Assembly: GCA_963835795.1 (NCBI GenBank)
Contig: CAWIHJ010000074.1
Span: 14,392-78,391 of the forward strand
Direction of reading: 5' to 3'
DNA from: an uncultured Gammaproteobacteria bacterium
GTDB taxonomy: Bacteria > Pseudomonadota > Gammaproteobacteria > GCA-001735895
DNA: 64,000 bases
The notes under the pieces are model-generated. The model saw nothing but the letters and a program-made list of their open reading frames with translations. It made no database searches and had not been told where the DNA came from. The position numbers and the translations under genes are program-made. Below are positions 35,223-61,884 of the stretch, piece after piece; position 1 is the first letter of the stretch, and every line of letters starts with the position of its first letter.

Positions 35223-36651
35223 ATGAATCAACCCCTCGCCATCGCCTGGTTTCGCCAGGATCTGCGCATTCACGATAATCCGGCCTTGCGCGCCGCCGCC
35301 GAACACGATTCGGTGTTACCGATTTATATTCTGGACGACGACAACGCCGGGCACTGGGCCATGGGCGGCGCCAGCCGCGCCTGGTTGCATCATTCACTGC
35401 AGGCATTGAATCGCAGCCTGGATGGCCGCTTGCAGCTGTTCCAGGGTGATGCGCGCGCGATTATCGAGCGCCTGGTCGAAGACCACGACGTCGATGCGGT
35501 TTACTGGAATCGTTGTTACGAACCCTGGCGGGTACAGCGCGACCAGCTGATCAAGCAGGACCTGATGGAAAGTGGCGTCGACGCGCGCAGTTACAATGCG
35601 TCGCTGCTGTGGGAACCCTGGGAGGTGGCCAAGAAGGACGGTACGCCCTACCGTGTGTTTACCCCTTTTTATCAAAATGGCTGCCGCCAGGCGCAGCCCC
35701 CGCGCGCGGCGCTGCCGGCCCCGCAAAACCTGCGCTGTTTGCGACGCCGACGTCGACTTCGCGCAATCGCTACAAGCGCTGAAATTGCTACCCGAGGACC
35801 TGGATTGGCATCAGGGCCTGGTCTCAGAGTGGTCAATCGGTGAAGACGCCGCCAGCGCACAACTGCAGCAATTCTGCGAGCAAGACCTCGATGACTACAA
35901 GCGCGCGCGTGACTTCCCCGCCGTCGACGCTACTTCGCGACTGTCACCCCACCTGCACTTCGGCGAAATTTCGCCGCATCAACTGTGGCATCGCCTCGAG
36001 CACGATGGATCGCAGGCAGCGGGTGAAAATGCGGCCCACTTTCTGCGCGAAATTGCCTGGCGCGAGTTTTCCTATCACCTGCTGTATCAATTTCCGGGCC
36101 TGCCCCGCGACAATTTCAACGCCAAATTCGATCGCTTCGAATGGCGCGACGATGCTGCGGCGCTCGAGCGCTGGCAGCGCGGTCAAACCGGTTTTCCGAT
36201 CGTCGATGCCGGCATGCGCGAACTCTGGCAAACCGGTTACATGCACAACCGCGTGCGCATGATCGTTGCTTCTTTCCTGATCAAAAACCTGCTGATCCAC
36301 TGGCGCGCGGGCGCTGACTGGTTCTGGGATTGCCTGTTCGACGCCGACCTCGCCAACAACAGCGCGAGCTGGCAATGGTGTGCCGGGTCCGGGGCTGACG
36401 CCTCACCCTATTTCCGCATCTTCAACCCGGTATTGCAGAGCCAGAAATTCGATCCTGAAGGCGAGTACCTGCTGCGTTACTGTCCGGAGCTTGGCGGCTT
36501 GCCCGCGCGCCTGCGTCACCAGCCCTGGCAGGCCAGCGAGGCCCAATTACAGGAAGCCGGTATTCGTCTCGGGGAAGACTACCCGCTACCGATGGTGGAT
36601 TTGAAAGTCACGCGAGAACGCGCGTTACAACGATTCAAAGAACTCGCCTGA
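35223..36651 (+). pseudogene. phr: deoxyribodipyrimidine photolyase (CPD photolyase), frameshifted
   Basis: N-domain ORF 35223..35843 (IAWFRQDLRIHDNPAL) and FAD domain ORF 35572..36651 (WREFSYHLLYQFP, TGFPIVDAGMRELWQTGYMHNRVRMIVASFL) are in different frames. Lesion near 35745. Confidence 0.8.
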
Positions 36652-36674
36652 GCGAGCATTGGTCTGATCACCGG

Positions 36675-56310: not shown

Positions 56311-56937
56311 TTATTGCGCCAGTTCCCTGGCGACGAGGAAATCGATGATCTCGATCATGCGCTCGTTACTGCCCGCGAGCGACCCGGATACCAGGTACTT
56401 GCCATTGACAATGACGGCGGGGACACCACTGTTCCCGTAACGCTTTTCCTTGCCCATATTCTTGCGAACCTGGGTTTCGACCGGAAACGAATAATAGTAC
56501 TCACGGAACAACTTTTCGTCGAGCCCCTGTTCGGCCACAAATGCGGCGATGGTGTCGACATTGGTCAAGCGTTGACGTTTTAAATGAAGGGCATCAAAAA
56601 ACTGTCGGTGGGTTTTATCCAGGGCACCCATCAATTGAAACGAATAATAGGCGCGGGCGTGCTCGGTCCAGCTCGGATTGAGCGAGGAAGGTACCTGCTC
56701 GAAGACGACGTTTTCGGGCAGATTAGCCGACCAGCGTTCCACGTATGGCTCGAAGCGGAAACAGTGCGGGCAGCCGTACCAGAACATTTCGGTGACGACC
56801 ACCTTGTCGGGCTGTGACGTTTTAACCGCTGGCGATACCAGCTCGAAATCCTTTCCGACGACAAACGAATTTTGCGCCATTGCGCTTCCTGAGATCATCG
56901 ACAGCAGGGCAATGCCCAATAGCCAGCGCTTTATCAT
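56311..56937 (-). CDS. dsbA: thiol:disulfide interchange protein DsbA family
   Basis: Signal peptide MIKRWLLGIALLSMISGSAMA (AGGAG SD). CPHC active site (FWYGCPHCFRF). Confidence 0.75.
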   Translation of the reverse strand: MIKRWLLGIALLSMISGSAMAQNSFVVGKDFELVSPAVKTSQPDKVVVTEMFWYGCPHCFRFEPYVERWSANLPENVVFEQVPSSLNPSWTEHARAYYSFQLMGALDKTHRQFFDALHLKRQRLTNVDTIAAFVAEQGLDEKLFREYYYSFPVETQVRKNMGKEKRYGNSGVPAVIVNGKYLVSGSLAGSNERMIEIIDFLVARELAQ

Positions 56938-57094
56938 TATTAGTTCTCCTGAGTTGTATTTACCTAGAGACAGGGAAAATGCCAAATAGTTTGGATCAAC
57001 CGATTCTAGTCGACAATTATAAAGCCACTTGATACGGGTCGAGTTTATCGCCGACAGGTGAATGCCGGCTTAATTTACCCGTTTGTTTCCGGGT

Positions 57095-57712
57095 TTATTG
57101 AATGCCGGCAATGTAGGCTGCGACCGATTGCATTTCTTCTGCAGACATGCGCACGACCAGGTTGCGCATCATGCCACCGGTATCGTTGGCGCGACTGCCT
57201 TCCTTGAATTTTTGCAACTGGGCGACGATGTACTCGGGATGCTGGCCTTTCAGCGATGGCCAGCCGGCGGGGCCATTACCTTTACCGCTCGGCATATGGC
57301 AACCCATGCAGGCGGCAACCCGGGTTTCGGTAATGCCACCGCGATAAATGCTCTCGCCCTTCTCAACCATTGCACCATCGAAGGCTACTGCCTTGGGCTG
57401 CTGGCTTTCGAAGTAGGCGGCCAGGTCCTTCATGTCGTCCTCACTGAGACCGGCAACCATGCCCGCCATCGATGGATCGACCCGACGCTCGGCCTTGAAA
57501 TCCTGGAGCTGTTTGACGATATAAGACGCGTGTTGACCAGCCAGTGACGGCCAGATCGGATTAATGCTGTTACCATCGACTCCGTGGCATGCTGCACAGA
57601 CGACGCTTTTGGCTTTTCCAGCTTCGACATCACCGCCAGCAACAGCAGTTGGGGCGAATGAGGACAGGCCGGACAGGACCAGCACGATGACTCCAATTAG
57701 GCTCGCTTTCAT
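57095..57712 (-). CDS. diheme cytochrome c4
   Basis: Two CxxCH sites (CAACHG, CMGCHMPSGKG) and a signal peptide. The cc4-engB-polA neighbourhood is as in pseudomonads. Confidence 0.8.
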   Translation of the reverse strand: MKASLIGVIVLVLSGLSSFAPTAVAGGDVEAGKAKSVVCAACHGVDGNSINPIWPSLAGQHASYIVKQLQDFKAERRVDPSMAGMVAGLSEDDMKDLAAYFESQQPKAVAFDGAMVEKGESIYRGGITETRVAACMGCHMPSGKGNGPAGWPSLKGQHPEYIVAQLQKFKEGSRANDTGGMMRNLVVRMSAEEMQSVAAYIAGIQ

Positions 57713-57793: not shown

Positions 57794-58393
57794 ATGTTAA
57801 CCATGAGTATTTCATTCAGACAGGCAAAATTCATTACCAGCGCATTCGAGCTCTCGCAGCTGCTGCCCGACACGGGTGCGGAAGTGGCTTTTGCGGGACG
57901 CTCGAATGCCGGCAAATCCAGCGCGATCAATTGCCTCACCGGGCAGAAAAACCTGTGTAAAACCAGCAAGACCCCGGGGCGTACGCAGTTGATCAATTTT
58001 TTCGAAGTGGGTGAGGACAAGCGGCTGGTGGATTTACCCGGCTATGGTTTCGCCAAAGTCTCGAAACAACTGCGCAATCACTGGAACCTGGTGCTGTCCA
58101 CTTTCCTCTTGCAGCGCGAGGCGCTACGTGGACTGGTGATCGTGGTGGATATCCGTCGGGGCATCAGCGATCTTGACCGGGCCTTGATCCACATGATGGA
58201 TAACAGCCTGCCGTTACACATCCTGTTGACCAAATCCGACAAGTTATCGCGCAGCGCCAGGCTCCAGGCGGTGGCGCGCACCGAGGCGCAACTGGTCGGC
58301 CCCGGGCAGAGCGTATCCACGCTGTCGATCCAGACCGGTACAGGTCTCGACCTGCTGGAACAGCAGTGCGGTGCCTGGTTATCGACGCCGTAA
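57794..58393 (+). CDS. engB: ribosome biogenesis GTP-binding protein EngB/YihA
   Basis: GRSNAGKSS G1 motif, DLPGYG G3 motif, TKSDK G4 motif. Confidence 0.85.
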   Translation: MLTMSISFRQAKFITSAFELSQLLPDTGAEVAFAGRSNAGKSSAINCLTGQKNLCKTSKTPGRTQLINFFEVGEDKRLVDLPGYGFAKVSKQLRNHWNLVLSTFLLQREALRGLVIVVDIRRGISDLDRALIHMMDNSLPLHILLTKSDKLSRSARLQAVARTEAQLVGPGQSVSTLSIQTGTGLDLLEQQCGAWLSTP

Positions 58394-58431
58394 ATTCGCA
58401 AACTATGGGGATTTTAAGGCTGATTGACGCG

Positions 58432-58791
58432 TTACGCGTTTAACCACAACAGCGTTTCCCTGAAAGCTGACCACTGTTTCACCAAATCATCCAGCCTGGC
58501 CGATACGGCCGCGCTTTTCCCACTTGCCGGCAGCGGATTCGCCGCGGCCTCCAGCAAAGCATCGACGATGGCATCGGCCTCATCAAATGTGCAGCTGACC
58601 AGGCAATAATCGTCGAATGGGTGACCCGTGTGTTTGCGCGGTTTCTCTACTTTGCCGCTCATCAGTGCGATGGCAACGAGAGCAGCCTGTTTCGCCTCGT
58701 AACGCCTAAGATAAGTCAGGGTTTCTTGCAGATCCGACACCTTGAAGGCATTCTGCTGGCAACAAATTTCCTTATACTCTAGCGAATTCAT
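58432..58791 (-). CDS. hypothetical protein (about 120 aa)
   Basis: ORF between engB and the polA-proximal sRNA candidate. Start at ATG (MNSLEYKE); the track ORF starts at TTG 58809. No motif recognised. Confidence 0.35.
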   Translation of the reverse strand: MNSLEYKEICCQQNAFKVSDLQETLTYLRRYEAKQAALVAIALMSGKVEKPRKHTGHPFDDYCLVSCTFDEADAIVDALLEAAANPLPASGKSAAVSARLDDLVKQWSAFRETLLWLNA

Positions 58792-58810
58792 CGGCGCTCT
58801 TGGCGGCAAG

Positions 58811-58840
58811 AAAAAATCCCTGGCAGAAAACTGCCAGGGA
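58811..58840 (-). terminator. rho-independent terminator on minus strand (tccctggcag-tttt-ctgccaggga + TTTTTT)
   Basis: 10-bp perfect stem and a T6 tract read on the reverse complement. Terminates transcription coming from the polA side. Confidence 0.55.
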
Positions 58841-58922
58841 TAAACGTGTGACCCGGATGGGGTTTCCGGATCGTTGTCCGCTCATAGGAGGGAGAACGGA
58901 CATAGCGCCGGGCTAAAGCGCT
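58811..58922 (-). ncRNA. candidate Spot42/ErsA-like small RNA at the conserved polA-downstream locus
   Basis: AlgU/sigmaE-type promoter GAACTA-N16-TCTAC at 58929..58955 (minus). No ORF. Intrinsic terminator at 58811..58840. About 110-nt transcript. E. coli spf and Pseudomonas ersA occupy the same position between polA and engB. Confidence 0.35.
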
Positions 58923-58928
58923 ACTTTG

Positions 58929-58955
58929 GTAGACATTCGACGCGTGGGTTAGTTC
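58929..58955 (-). promoter_or_regulatory. AlgU/RpoE-like promoter GAACTA-N16-TCTAC
   Basis: Read on the reverse complement of 58955..58929; consensus GAACTT-N16/17-TCTGA. Confidence 0.35.
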
Positions 58956-59059
58956 CGATTTCCACTACTGCAAATCCGCATCGAAAGGCGTCAATAACTA
59001 TTCATATGGGGTTTGCAGGGCACAAATCAAGTTTGCCTACGAACCGTTGTATAAATTTA

Positions 59060-59132
59060 CGCTATCCATGGGCCATTGGATCAGTTTCCGGCAAAAAAGT
59101 TTTATGCCGGATAGCCGCTATCCATGGGCCAT
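59060..59132. repeat. two copies of 17-bp direct repeat CGCTATCCATGGGCCAT (59060..59076, 59116..59132), each with near-palindromic core ATGGGCCAT
   Basis: Read in sequence. Located between the polA stop and the sRNA promoter. Confidence 0.45.
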
Positions 59133-59163
59133 CAGAATGGAACCCATGTGGCTGCAGGCGAAC

Positions 59164-61884
59164 TCAGTGGGCCTCGTTCCAGTTAAAGCCGATGCCGGCA
59201 TCCACTTCCAGCGCGACATCGAGACTGGCCGCGGAAGTCATTAAACCGGCGATGGTGTCACGACAGGATTCGACCTCGTCGAGCGCCACTTCAAACACCA
59301 GTTCATCGTGCACCTGCATGATCATTTTGCATTCGGGCTTTGCCTCCCGCAGCCAGCTCTGGACACGGATCATCGCGCGCTTGATGATATCGGCGGCAGT
59401 GCCCTGCATGGGCGCATTGATCGCCGTGCGTTCGGCATACTGGCGCACATTGGCATTGCGCGCATTGATGTCCGGCAAATACAGGCGCCGCCCGAACACG
59501 GTTTCCACGTATCCCTGGTCGCGCGCGCGTTGCTTGGTTTCTTCCATGTAGCGCTTGACGCCGGGGTAGCGTTCAAAATAAGTATCGACGTATTGCTGTG
59601 CCTCGTTGCGGCCAATATTCAGCTGCTTACCGAGACCGAAAGCCGACATGCCGTAGATCAGTCCGAAATTGATCGCCTTGGCGGCGCGGCGTTGATCGCC
59701 GTTGACCTGTTCGAGCTCGATGCCAAAGACCTCGGCCGCAGTCGCGCGGTGCACGTCGAGACCGCGAGCAAAAGCCTTTAGTAAACTTTCGTCCGCGGAC
59801 AGATGCGCCATGATGCGCAATTCGATCTGGGAATAATCGAGCGCCAGGATACGGCAGTCCGAGGGCGCAACAAATGCCTCGCGGATACGCCGACCTTCGC
59901 TGGTGCGAATCGGAATGTTTTGCAGGTTCGGGCTAGTCGACGACAGCCGACCGGTAGACGCTACCGCCTGCTGGTATGAAGTGTGCACCCGGCCGGTATT
60001 GGCATCGATTTCATGCGGCAGCTTGTCGATATAGGTCGACATCAGTTTGTTGAGGCTGCGGTGTTCCAGCAACAAGGCCGGGATTTCATAGTTGGCGCCG
60101 AGTTCTTCAAGCACGTCTTCGGCCGTCGACGGCTGTCCCTTGGGGGTTTTGCGCAAAACCGGCAACTCCAGTTTTTCGAACAATATGGCCTGGATCTGTT
60201 TGGGTGAACTGAGATTGAACACTTCGCCAGCTTCCTGGTAAATTTTTTGTTCGATCTCACCCAGCTTGCGATCGATTTCCTTGCCCTGTTTGCCCAGCAT
60301 GTCTTTGTCGATGAGCACGCCATTGCGCTCCACATCGAGCAGCACATCGACCAGGGGCATTTCGATATCGGTATACACCGAGTTCAACCTTGCGTCTTCG
60401 CGCAATCGACTGCTGAGCACCTGGTGTAACTGCAGCGTGATGTCGGCATCTTCGGCGGCATAGTGGCTGGCCGCTTCGATTTCAATTTGATCAAACGTCT
60501 TCTGCTTCGCGCCTTTACCGGCAATATCTTCAAAATGCACGGTGTCGTAATCGAGATAGTGTTTGGCCAGGTCATCCATGTTGTGCCGGCTGCCTGTCGA
60601 GTTGAGCACATAAGATTGCAGCATGGTGTCGTGCGCGAGGCCGCGCATGCGGATACCTTCGCTGATAAAGATGTGCGCGTCGTACTTGATGTTCTGCCCA
60701 ATTTTGCCGATGGCAGGATCTTCCAGTAGCGGTTTCAGCGCGGCGAGTACCGCAGCCTTGTCCAACTGCCGGGGCGCATCTTCGTAACTGTGCGCCAGCG
60801 GGATGTAACAGGCTTCACCGCTTTGCAGGCACAGCGAAATACCTACCAGCTCGGCGCGCATGTAATCGATGCTGGTGGTCTCGGTATCAATGGCGAACTC
60901 GTCTGCCACGCGCAGGCGTTGCAACCAGTCATCAAAATCGGCCTGCTCGAGAACGCACTGGTAATTTACCTGCGGGCGCGCATCGGCGGCTTTGGCAGAG
61001 GCGGGCGCGGCATCTCCTGCAGCCACGAGTTCATCGTACCAGCGGGTGAAACCGAACTCCTGGTAATAGTCGGCGAGCGCTGCGCGGTCGGGTTCCGCCT
61101 GCTGCAGTTGATCGATAGGAATACCGGTATCACAGTCGAGCTTGATCGTCGCCAGTTCATAGGACATGGGCAGGAAGTGCAGCGACTCGCGCAGATTCTC
61201 ACCCACCTTGCCGCCGATGTCGTCGGCATTCGCGATAACGGCATCAAGGCTTCCGAATTCCCCAATCCACTTCGCCGCTGTCTTTGGCCCCACTTTTGGC
61301 ACACCGGGAATATTATCCGAGGTATCGCCCATGAGCGCGAGATAATCGATGATCTGGTCGGCGCGGACCTGGAACTTTTCGACCACGCCGACTTCATCCA
61401 TGAACTGGTTGCTCATCGTGTTGACCAGGCTGACCTGGGCGTTGACCAACTGGGCCATATCCTTGTCGCCGGTTGAAATCAGTACCTGGTAACCCTGTTC
61501 CATAGCTTCGCGACTCATGGTGCCGATTATATCGTCTGCTTCGACTCCCTCTATGCAGACCAAAGGCAGGCCCTGGGCCTTGATAATTTCGTGCAAGGGC
61601 TCGATCTGGTCGCGCAATTCGTCCGGCATCGGTGGCCGATTGGCCTTGTACTCGGGATAAATATCGTTGCGAAAAGTCTTTCCCTTGGCGTCAAATACTA
61701 CGGCGATTCGGTCAGGCTGTTCATCCTTGACAAGCTTACGAAGCATATTGATTACAATAAATATCGCCTGGGTCGGAAAACCAGTCGAGCTCGTCATGGG
61801 TTGACGGAGGCGCGTATGGTAGGCGCGAAACAGGTAAGAACTACCGTCGACCAAAACCAGTTTTTTTCGTTTCTCTTGATTCAT
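59164..61884 (-). CDS. polA: DNA polymerase I
   Basis: 906 aa: 5'-3' exonuclease N-domain, 3'-5' exonuclease domain and polymerase domain. Motifs RRAAKAINFGLIYG and QVHDELVFE. Confidence 0.95.
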   Translation of the reverse strand: MNQEKRKKLVLVDGSSYLFRAYHTRLRQPMTSSTGFPTQAIFIVINMLRKLVKDEQPDRIAVVFDAKGKTFRNDIYPEYKANRPPMPDELRDQIEPLHEIIKAQGLPLVCIEGVEADDIIGTMSREAMEQGYQVLISTGDKDMAQLVNAQVSLVNTMSNQFMDEVGVVEKFQVRADQIIDYLALMGDTSDNIPGVPKVGPKTAAKWIGEFGSLDAVIANADDIGGKVGENLRESLHFLPMSYELATIKLDCDTGIPIDQLQQAEPDRAALADYYQEFGFTRWYDELVAAGDAAPASAKAADARPQVNYQCVLEQADFDDWLQRLRVADEFAIDTETTSIDYMRAELVGISLCLQSGEACYIPLAHSYEDAPRQLDKAAVLAALKPLLEDPAIGKIGQNIKYDAHIFISEGIRMRGLAHDTMLQSYVLNSTGSRHNMDDLAKHYLDYDTVHFEDIAGKGAKQKTFDQIEIEAASHYAAEDADITLQLHQVLSSRLREDARLNSVYTDIEMPLVDVLLDVERNGVLIDKDMLGKQGKEIDRKLGEIEQKIYQEAGEVFNLSSPKQIQAILFEKLELPVLRKTPKGQPSTAEDVLEELGANYEIPALLLEHRSLNKLMSTYIDKLPHEIDANTGRVHTSYQQAVASTGRLSSTSPNLQNIPIRTSEGRRIREAFVAPSDCRILALDYSQIELRIMAHLSADESLLKAFARGLDVHRATAAEVFGIELEQVNGDQRRAAKAINFGLIYGMSAFGLGKQLNIGRNEAQQYVDTYFERYPGVKRYMEETKQRARDQGYVETVFGRRLYLPDINARNANVRQYAERTAINAPMQGTAADIIKRAMIRVQSWLREAKPECKMIMQVHDELVFEVALDEVESCRDTIAGLMTSAASLDVALEVDAGIGFNWNEAH

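What the first reader, a model, noticed from the sequence alone, without database searches (positions are those of the whole stretch)
58811..58955. Candidate Spot42/ErsA-like sRNA between polA and engB with an AlgU-type promoter and strong terminator
Immediately downstream of polA, on the same strand, there is no ORF. There is a GAACTA-N16-TCTAC promoter-like element and, about 110 nt later, a perfect 10-bp stem plus T6 terminator. This is the conserved chromosomal slot of spf (Spot 42) in enterobacteria and of ersA in Pseudomonas. ersA is AlgU/sigma22-dependent. The terminator T-tract abuts the putative start of a 120-aa hypothetical gene. That gene is not part of the canonical polA-spf-engB arrangement.
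Basis: partly seen in the sequence, partly recalled or inferred. Interest (0 to 1): 0.55.

Follow-up and report, generated by a model that had tools for sequence, protein, structure and literature searches.

The report
SigmaE-type small RNA beside polA
A non-coding RNA gene of about 115 bases with an envelope-stress (sigma-E type) promoter lies between the DNA polymerase I gene and engB; it is a real but divergent member of a widespread RNA family (Rfam anti-hemB) whose function is unknown, and it occupies the same chromosomal slot as the Pseudomonas regulator ErsA.

Summary
GGAACTA-N16-TCTAC lies at 58956..58929 (-) and an 11-bp stem plus T6 terminator at 58841..58810 (-). The RNA between them folds into four hairpins (z = -7.8).

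It is a real RNA gene. In a sister lineage the RNA body differs at 1 of 114 positions, against 18% in the upstream spacer and dS of about 0.2 in the flanking genes. A covariance model containing no sequence from this lineage finds it at 76 bits (E 1e-14), the only hit in the window.

Relatives sit on the polA strand, convergent with engB, in many gammaproteobacteria, or between hemB and engB. All four helices covary. A GAAC-N18-20-TC promoter precedes 51 of 71 members, against 1% of background windows.

No Rfam model reaches its threshold here. The best is anti-hemB (RF02837) at 30.8 bits against 49.5, but relatives in the same slot pass it. ErsA loci are hit only weakly (23-31 bits). Spot 42 is not supported.

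The likely mechanism, inferred, is a sigma-E-driven trans-acting RNA. Its conserved C-rich loops (UCCCUCCU, CCCC) would pair with G-rich ribosome-binding sites.

The 119-aa gene downstream is a lineage-specific insertion.

The parts
58950..58956 (-). -35-like element GGAACTA of a sigma-E (RpoE/AlgU, ECF) type promoter
   Evidence: It is unchanged in the sister lineage while the spacer carries 2 substitutions. (G)GAACT(T) sits at the same distance in relatives.
58929..58933 (-). -10-like element TCTAC, 16 nt after the -35 element
   Evidence: It is conserved in the sister lineage. Relatives carry TCTTA, TCTGA, TCTAA, TCCAA or TCTAC here.
58810..58925 (-). Predicted sRNA transcript of about 112-116 nt. 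The 5' end is inferred at 58925-58921, 4-8 nt after the -10 element; the 3' end lies in the U-tract.
   Evidence: MFE of four hairpins, z = -7.8. 1 substitution in 114 nt against the sister lineage. Leave-one-out model R3: 76 bits, E 1.4e-14, full length. The ends are not mapped experimentally.
58902..58924 (-). Hairpin 1 (GUAGCGCU / GGCGCUAU, 7-nt loop)
   Evidence: All 8 pairs of helix 1 show compensatory changes across 72 relatives. This hairpin is absent from the 81-nt Rfam anti-hemB model.
58876..58901 (-). Hairpin 2. Its apical loop UCCCUCCUAU (58893..58884) resembles the anti-Shine-Dalgarno sequence and is the presumed seed.
   Evidence: The family consensus loop is uuCCUCCCUg, with CCUCC conserved at 90% or more. 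All 8 pairs are compensated. It is recovered independently by MAFFT plus RNAalifold.
58850..58872 (-). Hairpin 3, with apical loop AACCCCA (58864..58858)
   Evidence: Family consensus CCGGy-nnCCCCAng-CCGG. It is recovered by RNAalifold.
58810..58841 (-). Intrinsic terminator: 11-bp stem, UUUU loop, U6
   Evidence: The only difference from the sister lineage is U-A to U-G in this stem. Unlike most relatives, the loop is not C-rich.
58432..58791 (-). 119-aa gene inserted between the sRNA and engB; lineage-specific and not part of the RNA family's locus
   Evidence: dN/dS 0.106 with dS 0.24 against the sister lineage. Absent from all other loci. No Pfam or NCBIfam match. 53 remote homologues of unknown function.
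57794..58393 (+). engB (GTPase), the conserved convergent neighbour of this RNA family
   Evidence: Pfam MMR_HSR1. In relatives the RNA ends 4-350 nt from the 3' end of engB.
59164..61884 (-). polA, the upstream gene on the same strand
   Evidence: The polA-to-RNA distance in relatives varies from 40 to 917 nt.

Best explanation
Window 58925..58810 (-) encodes a stand-alone small regulatory RNA of about 115 nt. It is transcribed from an extracytoplasmic-stress (sigma-E/RpoE/AlgU-type) promoter at 58956..58929 and ended by its own intrinsic terminator. It is a divergent member of a large beta/gamma-proteobacterial family that is anchored next to engB. In this family the upstream gene is either polA on the same strand or a divergent hemB. 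Rfam describes part of the family as anti-hemB (RF02837; known as Bc7 or ncS04 in Burkholderia). What is shown here: the RNA's structure and its covariation, its conservation, the conserved promoter motif, and the synteny. What is inferred: under envelope stress the RNA accumulates and acts in trans. It presents the conserved C-rich apical loops of hairpin 2 (UCCCUCCU, a copy of the anti-Shine-Dalgarno sequence) and hairpin 3 (CCCC) to G-rich ribosome-binding sites of target mRNAs. This would block translation initiation and make the RNA a repressor arm of the sigma-E regulon. The inference rests on three analogies: sigma-22-dependent ErsA in the same slot, the C-rich loops of sX13 downstream of polA in Xanthomonas, and the co-purification of Bc7 with Hfq.
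For: Structure: four hairpins, z = -7.8. Selection: 1 of 114 positions differs from the sister lineage, against 38 of 207 in the upstream spacer and dS 0.18-0.24 in polA, engB and the ORF. The two promoter substitutions both fall in the spacer. Family: the single-lineage model R1 found full-length hits downstream of polA in 12 or more distant MAGs. Model R3 was built from 72 sequences with none from this lineage. It hits the window at 76 bits, E 1.4e-14, and nowhere else in the 64 kb. Covariation: 93% of cells are paired and 34 of 35 pairs show compensatory changes, falling to 35-51% paired when partners are slid. Hairpins 2 and 3 and the terminator are also recovered from a MAFFT alignment not fitted to the model. 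Position: all 35 R3 hits in 518 kb of polA loci lie on the polA strand, and 34 of them lie 0.04-0.92 kb after polA. The RNA is convergent with engB at 4-350 nt. Promoter: GAAC-N18-20-TCNN[AC] occurs in the 50 nt before 51 of 71 members, against 1.0% of random windows, and before all ErsA loci. Link to a known family: contigs with the RNA between polA and engB pass the anti-hemB gathering score (L144 60.2, L117 54.1, L091 52.3 bits). So do hemB-engB contigs, at 62-79 bits. Literature: ErsA is sigma-22-dependent, Hfq-dependent and lies in the polA-engB spacer (PMC8575079, PMC6321483). The C-rich loops of sX13 repress mRNAs with G-rich motifs at the ribosome-binding site (PMC3771888). Bc7/ncS04 is expressed and binds Hfq (PMC5688073, PMC6321483).
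Against: No expression data exist for this organism, so the transcript, its ends and its sigma-E dependence are all inferred from sequence. The -10 element TCTAC ends in C where most relatives have A. No rpoE or hfq gene lies in the 64 kb, which is uninformative either way. No convincing target was found in the window: complementarity to the hairpin-2 loop is at chance level. The window RNA scores only 30.8 bits against the Rfam anti-hemB model, whose threshold is 49.5. Its terminator loop lacks the C-rich motif that most relatives carry. A subgroup of the family has sigma-70-like promoters, so regulation is not uniform across the family. The covariation counts come from model-fitted alignments, which lean towards the structure.
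Confidence: 0.7

Rival explanations
1. The structured RNA acts mainly by binding and titrating a protein (Hfq, a CsrA/RsmA-like protein or another RNA-binding protein), or as a sponge for other RNAs. It would not act by pairing its C-rich loops with ribosome-binding sites.
For: The RNA is almost fully structured, with little single-stranded sequence. Bc7/ncS04 was recovered by co-purification with Hfq (PMC6321483, PMC5688073). No target was found in the window.
Against: The most conserved bases of the family are CCUCC(C) and CCCC in apical loops. This is the arrangement shown experimentally to mediate repression by sX13, which does not need Hfq (PMC3771888). There are no GGA repeats of the CsrA-sponge type.
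Confidence: 0.12
2. The element is the 5' leader or attenuator of the downstream 119-aa gene. The sigma-E-type promoter would drive that gene, and the terminator would be a regulated attenuator rather than the end of an sRNA.
For: The ATG of the ORF lies 18 nt after the T-tract. No sigma-70-like promoter was found in 58300..59300. The arrangement is kept in the sister lineage.
Against: In every other member of the family, more than 80 loci, there is no co-directional gene after the RNA; the next gene is the convergent engB. The RNA therefore predates the ORF and exists without it. The terminator is strong and shows no alternative anti-terminator pairing in the MFE or centroid structure. Some read-through into the ORF remains possible in addition to sRNA function.
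Confidence: 0.07
3. It is the local orthologue of Spot 42 (spf), a CRP-controlled regulator of carbon metabolism.
For: It occupies the same slot and strand relative to polA and engB. The family models R2 and R3 touch the spf loci at 21-25 bits, E 0.003-0.03.
Against: Rfam Spot_42 gives no match here even at E<=10, while scoring 117-126 bits on the enterobacterial loci. The promoter is of the sigma-E type, not sigma-70/CRP. The single-stranded seed regions of Spot 42 are absent.
Confidence: 0.03
4. It is not an RNA gene but DNA-level features: terminators for polA and engB plus chance hairpins, or a repetitive palindromic element.
For: The terminator could serve neighbouring genes. A hairpin flanked by repeats lies just upstream at 59060..59132.
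Against: Conservation is about 20-fold stronger than in the adjacent spacer. All four helices covary. Loop sequences are conserved. There is a conserved promoter at a fixed distance. It is a single copy in the window.
Confidence: 0.03
5. It is a dual-function RNA that encodes a small protein (the 43-aa ORF at 58772..58903).
For: An ATG at 58903 opens a 43-codon frame.
Against: The frame starts inside the hairpin-1/hairpin-2 junction and runs through the terminator. No Shine-Dalgarno sequence is evident. The ATG is not conserved in relatives.
Confidence: 0.02

Closest known systems
anti-hemB RNA (Rfam RF02837; Burkholderia Bc7 / ncS04; CMfinder hemB/anti-hemB motif, PMC1950547)
   Same: Both have a hairpin with a CCUCCC loop, then a second hairpin, then a terminator (alignment). 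Relatives in the identical polA-RNA-engB arrangement pass the Rfam threshold. A model built from sequences of the same set, several of which were confirmed above that threshold, finds the window at 76 bits. Both are anchored next to engB.
   Different: The window scores 30.8 bits against a gathering score of 49.5. The upstream neighbour is polA rather than hemB. The loop reads CCCUCC rather than CCUCCC. The Rfam model lacks the 5' hairpin 1, which the whole family carries. One branch, which on its hemB context I take to be the Burkholderiales type, has sigma-70-like promoters and no adjacent engB. No function has been established for the family.
ErsA / Pseudomon-1 (Rfam RF01719), Pseudomonas
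   Same: Both lie in the polA-engB spacer on the polA strand and are convergent with engB. Both have a GAACTT-N16/17-TCAGA-type promoter at the same distance; ErsA is experimentally sigma-22-dependent (PMC6321483). The 5' hairpin, a middle hairpin with a C-rich loop, and the terminator align to hairpins 1 and 3 and the terminator. Every ErsA locus is hit by R2 and R3 at 20-31 bits.
   Different: RF01719 gives no match at E<=10. ErsA has a 34-nt unstructured U-rich domain II as its seed (PMC8575079), where this RNA has the structured C-rich hairpin 2. Homology is plausible but weakly supported.
sX13 (Rfam RF02232), Xanthomonadaceae
   Same: Both are about 115 nt, lie downstream of polA and are highly structured, with C-rich (CCCC) apical loops. 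In sX13 these loops repress mRNAs carrying G-rich motifs at the ribosome-binding site (PMC3771888). Several family members score 27-31 bits against RF02232.
   Different: [quoted passage not shown] The promoter type of sX13 and its linkage to engB were not examined.
Spot 42 (spf, Rfam RF00021), Enterobacterales and Vibrionaceae
   Same: The chromosomal slot is the same.
   Different: There is no detectable similarity of sequence or structure by the Rfam model. The promoter logic differs (CRP/sigma-70, from established knowledge), and so does the seed architecture.
Sigma-E-dependent repressor sRNAs of enterobacteria (RybB, MicA, MicL)
   Same: The proposed regulatory logic is the same: an sRNA transcribed from a GGAACTT-N16-TCxxA promoter that represses translation as the negative arm of the envelope-stress regulon (established knowledge). 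An earlier in silico study named RybB as the 'homolog' of Bc7 (PMC6321483).
   Different: No sequence relationship was detected here. Those RNAs use 5' single-stranded seeds and lie at other loci.

Membership tests
anti-hemB (RF02837) | Score at or above the Rfam gathering threshold (49.5 bits) | tested here: not met
   30.8 bits, E 4.7e-5 in a 1-kb search, full model 1-81 matched at 58902..58809 (-). No hit in gathering mode.
anti-hemB (RF02837) | Architecture: hairpin with a CCUCC(C) apical loop, a second hairpin, a terminator hairpin and a U-tract | tested here: met
   MFE and centroid structure; alignment to the Rfam consensus.
anti-hemB (RF02837) | Recognised by a model built only from other members, with none from the window's lineage | tested here: met
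   R3 was built from 72 sequences. Those checked with Rfam (L104, L166, L152, L128, L151, L126, L124, L140, L157, L144, L117, L091) pass the anti-hemB threshold. R3 hits the window at 76 bits, E 1.4e-14, the only hit in the window.
anti-hemB (RF02837) | Genomic context: non-coding strand next to hemB, with following genes on the opposite strand (PMC1950547) | tested here: inconclusive
   There is no hemB in the window. However, members that pass the threshold also occur as polA-RNA-engB, and engB is the shared neighbour. Here a 119-aa gene separates the RNA from engB.
anti-hemB (RF02837) | Expressed as an sRNA of about 105 nt that binds Hfq (Bc7/ncS04) | not testable with these tools
   Literature only (PMC5688073, PMC6321483).
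ErsA / Pseudomon-1 (RF01719) | Score at or above the Rfam gathering threshold (50 bits) | tested here: not met
   No match at E<=10. Positive control: L035 scores 105.5 bits.
ErsA / Pseudomon-1 (RF01719) | Gene in the polA-engB spacer, on the polA strand | tested here: met
   with one extra gene inserted before engB.
ErsA / Pseudomon-1 (RF01719) | Sigma-22/AlgU-dependent promoter | tested here: inconclusive
   The motif is present and conserved. Dependence itself needs an experiment.
ErsA / Pseudomon-1 (RF01719) | Unstructured U-rich domain II between SL1 and SL2, used as the seed | tested here: not met
   That position is occupied by the structured C-rich hairpin 2.
Spot 42 (RF00021) | Score at or above the Rfam gathering threshold (80 bits) | tested here: not met
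   No match at E<=10. Controls score 117-126 bits.
Spot 42 (RF00021) | Sigma-70 promoter under cAMP-CRP control | tested here: not met
   No sigma-70-like site in 58300..59300. The promoter-like element present is of the sigma-E type.
sX13 (RF02232) | Score at or above the Rfam gathering threshold (50 bits) | tested here: not met
   No match at E<=10 for the window. Relatives reach 27-31 bits.
sX13 (RF02232) | Three stem-loops with apical CCCC/CCCCC motifs, downstream of polA | tested here: inconclusive
   Two of the four loops are C-rich (hairpin 2 CCCUCC, hairpin 3 CCCC). The terminator loop is UUUU here but C-rich in most relatives.

The most novel reading that the evidence does not exclude
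The window RNA belongs to a single ancient sRNA lineage that is linked to engB and driven by sigma-E, and that spans beta- and gamma-proteobacteria. Under this reading Rfam currently splits that lineage into unrelated families with no shared clan: anti-hemB, ErsA and sX13, and conceivably Spot 42. The lineage would have undergone promoter swaps: from sigma-E to sigma-70 in the hemB-linked branch that lacks engB (Burkholderiales-type, by my inference), and to CRP/sigma-70 in enterobacteria. It would also have had its seed remodelled, from the structured anti-Shine-Dalgarno loop to the unstructured U-rich domain of ErsA. This would give the uncharacterised anti-hemB RNAs a concrete predicted role as the repressor arm of the envelope-stress regulon. 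It would argue against the reading of anti-hemB as a cis-antisense regulator of hemB.
Probability: 0.4. Interest if true: 0.6.

Novelty: new member of a known kind. Interest (0 to 1): 0.42.

Why it matters
For this genome, the result adds a well-supported regulatory RNA gene that the standard Rfam gathering-threshold scan run here did not detect. It also shows that the hypothetical gene next to it is a recent insertion.

More broadly, the comparison shows two things. First, the 'sRNA slot' beside polA is really an engB-anchored slot shared by beta- and gamma-proteobacteria. Second, most occupants carry a sigma-E-type promoter and anti-Shine-Dalgarno-like loops.

That ties three separately described RNAs (anti-hemB, ErsA, sX13) together. 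It gives a testable function, translational repression under envelope stress, to a family that has been known since 2007 without one.

Tried and rejected
1. It lacks the conserved loops and was not found by R2 or R3. I rejected it as spurious.

2. Target prediction inside the window. I ran RNAduplex of the hairpin-2 and hairpin-3 loops against candidate translation-initiation regions, and searched for the complement of the hairpin-2 loop (7 matches with up to 3 mismatches against 8.5 expected, and the only exact match is the gene itself). Nothing usable came out; 64 kb is too little sequence.

None is present, which is uninformative.

4. Plain sequence searches (blastn and nhmmer) with the RNA against 80 polA loci found only the sister lineage. 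Structure-aware models were needed.

5. The MAFFT alignment of distant members was too poor to build a model from. I seeded the model from the window and its sister lineage instead.

6. The 119-aa ORF. Pfam, NCBIfam, PHROGs and PDB sequence searches found nothing significant. The single-sequence AlphaFold model has pLDDT 44 and was not used for a fold search.

7. A relaxed sigma-E promoter pattern is not enriched across the window (6 matches against 3.7 expected).

8. The 17-nt repeat upstream has no further close copies in the window.

Full report
LAYOUT. polA lies at 59164..61884 on the minus strand and engB at 57794..58393 on the plus strand. A 119-aa ORF lies at 58432..58791 on the minus strand. 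The finding sits on the minus strand between polA and that ORF.

OBSERVATION. The minus strand reads GGAACTA (58956..58950), a 16-nt spacer, then TCTAC (58933..58929). About 88 nt further on there is an 11-bp perfect stem with a UUUU loop (58841..58816), followed by T6 (58815..58810). The promoter-like pattern GGAACT-N16/17-TCTA occurs once in the window, against 0.05 expected. The 118 nt from 58925 to 58808 fold into four hairpins at -56.8 kcal/mol. Shuffled sequences give -29.9 +/- 3.4, so z = -7.8. Hairpin 2 has the apical loop UCCCUCCUAU and hairpin 3 the loop AACCCCA.

IS IT UNDER SELECTION? The 119-aa protein has one close relative, at 94% identity, on six metagenomic contigs from one sister lineage, L001-L006.
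- Aligning the whole spacer shows 38 differences in the 207 nt between the polA stop and the -35 element (18.4%).
- There are 2 differences in the promoter, both in the spacer between the two hexamers.
- There is 1 difference in the 114 nt of the RNA body. It changes U-A to U-G in the terminator stem.
- Synonymous divergence in the flanking genes is 0.18-0.24.
The RNA is therefore about 20-fold more conserved than neutral sequence.

RELATIVES. A scan of species-representative genomes with the polA C-terminus returned 80 loci across the Gammaproteobacteria. The best are only 72-73% identical (Methylobacter and Chromatiales MAGs), so the host is poorly sampled. Plain sequence searches with the RNA found nothing beyond the sister lineage.

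A covariance model of the window plus its sister sequence, using the MFE structure (R1), found full-length hits in 12 or more distant MAGs. All were on the polA strand just after polA. Rebuilding from these 13 sequences (R2) extended the set.

The definitive test was R3. It was built from 72 sequences, none from the window's lineage. It hits window 58925..58808 (-) at 76 bits, E 1.4e-14, over the full model, and nothing else in the 64 kb. In 518 kb of polA loci all 35 R3 hits are on the polA strand, and 34 of them lie 0.04-0.92 kb after polA.

COVARIATION. On the 72-sequence alignment 93% of cells are paired, against 35-51% when partners are slid by 1-3 columns. Thirty-four of 35 pairs show compensatory changes, in all four helices (the 13-sequence set gives 96% and 31 of 35). 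These alignments are fitted to the model, so they lean towards the structure. An alignment made without the model (MAFFT plus RNAalifold) still recovers hairpins 2 and 3 and the terminator, with 12 compensated pairs. Independent MFE folds of individual relatives also give the same layout. The conserved bases are CCUCC(C)U in the hairpin-2 loop, CCGG..CCCCA..CCGG in hairpin 3, and CCCC..GGGG in the terminator stem.

PROMOTER. The 50 nt before the modelled 5' end carry (G)GAACT(T), a spacer, and TCxxA in nearly every gammaproteobacterial member. The pattern GAAC-N18-20-TCNN[AC] is present in 51 of 71 members, against 1.0% of random 50-nt windows from the same loci. This is the signature of RpoE/AlgU-type ECF sigma factors. 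From established knowledge, not tested here, the E. coli sigma-E consensus is GGAACTT-N16-TCAAA and the P. aeruginosa AlgU consensus is GAACTT-N16/17-TCTGA. All Pseudomonas loci show the motif before ErsA, and ErsA is experimentally sigma-22-dependent (PMC6321483). So the window's promoter is a conserved family feature, not a chance match. A lower-scoring subgroup has TTGAAA-N17-TAAATT (sigma-70-like) instead.

SYNTENY. In the genome loci the RNA ends 15-140 nt from the 3' end of the convergent engB in most cases, and up to 338 nt in L023. The distance from polA varies from 40 to 917 nt. Only the window and its sister lineage have a gene between the RNA and engB.

A metagenome scan with the hairpin-2 pattern returned 80 loci, and 77 of them contain a full-length match. 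In many of these the upstream gene is polA. In many others it is a divergent hemB, with engB and then a cytochrome c4 gene downstream. The window's own order is the same on that side: dsbA-like gene, cytochrome c4, engB, RNA, polA. The stable anchor of the family is therefore engB, not polA.

COMPARISON WITH KNOWN FAMILIES. Rfam at gathering thresholds finds nothing in the window. At E<=10 the best match is anti-hemB (RF02837), at 30.8 bits against a threshold of 49.5. There is no match to Spot_42, Pseudomon-1/ErsA or sX13. The positive controls work: Spot_42 scores 117-126 bits in three enterobacterial loci and ErsA scores 105 bits in a Pseudomonas locus, each just after polA.

Family members score below threshold against three models:
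- anti-hemB: up to 48.6 bits.
- sX13: 27-31 bits.
- ErsA: L028 at 34.3 bits.

Among the metagenomic loci, both arrangements pass the anti-hemB threshold:
- hemB-RNA-engB contigs score 62-79 bits.
- polA-RNA-engB contigs score 60.2 (L144), 54.1 (L117) and 52.3 (L091) bits.

The polA-engB RNA and anti-hemB are therefore one family, and the window RNA is a divergent member of it. The Rfam model covers only hairpins 2-4 (81 nt). The family also has a covarying 5' hairpin.

R2 and R3 contain no Pseudomonas sequence, yet they hit all 11 ErsA loci at the ErsA coordinates (20-31 bits, E about 1e-4 to 0.05). They hit the three spf loci at 21-25 bits. The alignment puts SL1, SL2 and SL3 of ErsA on hairpin 1, hairpin 3 and the terminator, and puts its U-rich domain II where hairpin 2 is. 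With the shared slot and promoter, remote homology to ErsA is plausible but not proven. For Spot 42 the evidence is too thin.

LITERATURE.
- anti-hemB was predicted in 2007 as a probable non-coding RNA ending in a terminator (PMC1950547).
- It is expressed in B. cenocepacia as the 105-nt ncS04, and binds Hfq as Bc7 (PMC5688073, PMC6321483).
- A 2026 preprint treats it as an antisense regulator of hemB (10.64898/2026.09.01.748597).
- sX13 is a 115-nt RNA downstream of polA. Its C-rich loops repress mRNAs that carry G-rich motifs at the ribosome-binding site. Its authors asked whether polA loci of other bacteria encode similar RNAs (PMC3771888).
- ErsA lies in the polA-engB spacer, has three stem-loops and needs Hfq (PMC8575079).
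- No paper in the searched library mentions both ErsA and sX13, and only the ErsA papers mention the polA-engB spacer.

MECHANISM. Shown here: a conserved, structured, single-copy RNA gene with its own conserved stress-type promoter and its own terminator. Inferred: it is induced by the RpoE-type envelope-stress sigma factor and acts in trans. The CCUCC and CCCC apical loops would pair with GGAGG- or GGGG-containing ribosome-binding sites and block translation. No targets could be proposed from the 64 kb.

The alternative that it is the leader of the 119-aa gene is unlikely, because the family exists without any downstream co-directional gene. Read-through into that gene remains possible.

THE 119-AA GENE. 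It is real: dN/dS is 0.106. It has 53 distant homologues of similar length and no annotated family, domain or solved structure. It is a lineage-specific insertion into the sRNA-engB junction.

VERDICT. The RNA is a new, divergent member of a known kind (anti-hemB in the broad sense). The wider pattern it exposes is an engB-anchored RNA lineage, mostly sigma-E-driven, that probably also includes ErsA and sX13. That pattern is the more interesting by-product.

Noticed in passing
window 59060..59132: Two exact 17-nt direct repeats (CGCTATCCATGGGCCAT at 59060-59076 and 59116-59132) flank a 12-bp A/T-topped hairpin (59087..59111), just after the polA stop. There are no other close copies in the window. 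In the sister lineage the copy nearer polA is almost intact and the other has diverged. This may be the polA terminator region with a local duplication.
   Followed up: partly
window 58432..58791 (-): The 119-aa gene is under purifying selection (dN/dS 0.11). It belongs to an unannotated family of proteins of about 110-125 aa, with 53 representative clusters and invariant Tyr6 and Trp107. It has no Pfam, NCBIfam or PDB relative. Its ATG lies 18 nt after a strong terminator and no sigma-70-like promoter was detected, so how it is transcribed is unclear.
   Followed up: partly
L092, L113, L137, L148, L097, L109, L135, L120, L088, L105 (metagenome loci): This subgroup of anti-hemB RNAs has sigma-70-like promoters (TTGAAA-N17-TAAATT) instead of the sigma-E motif and no detectable engB. 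In the loci whose flanks I examined (L113, L137, L109) hemB is divergent upstream, and in L113, L137 and L088 a membrane-protein gene follows that looked VanZ-like to me by eye (not tested). This suggests a promoter swap within one RNA family.
   Followed up: partly
L014:3932-4028, L019:3881-3983, L027:3324-3428 (Methylococcaceae/Methylococcales): In L014 and L019, the loci whose alignment I inspected, the RNA after polA keeps hairpin 1, a C-rich hairpin 2 and the terminator but lacks hairpin 3, and a GGAACTT-type promoter is still present. These score only 17-19 bits; L027 scores 29 bits but its alignment was not inspected.
   Followed up: partly
Rfam RF02837 compared with alignments A5/A10: The Rfam anti-hemB model (81 positions) starts at the CCUCCC hairpin. 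It omits a 5' hairpin that is present and covaries (8 of 8 pairs) in the family, which fits the 105-nt transcript reported for ncS04. Adding it, together with gammaproteobacterial sequences, would probably let the model detect RNAs like the one in this window.
   Followed up: partly
L028:3900-4029: One gammaproteobacterial RNA scores below threshold with both the ErsA model (34.3 bits) and the anti-hemB model (32.8 bits). It may be an intermediate form linking the two families.
   Followed up: no
window 36640..36667 (+): GAACTCGCCTGAGCGAGCATTGGTCTGA is a good match to the AlgU-type consensus and sits at the 3' end of the ORF at 35572..36651. It could be a second sigma-E-type promoter in the window. 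The relaxed pattern as a whole is not enriched over chance.
   Followed up: no
window 56311..57712 and 57794..58393: The order DsbA-like gene, cytochrome c4, engB, sRNA, polA matches, from my memory of the annotation and not checked here, the P. aeruginosa order dsbA-cc4-engB-ErsA-polA. Metagenomic hemB-RNA-engB contigs also carry cytochrome c4 after engB. The engB/cytochrome c4 block is therefore conserved around this RNA across classes.
   Followed up: partly
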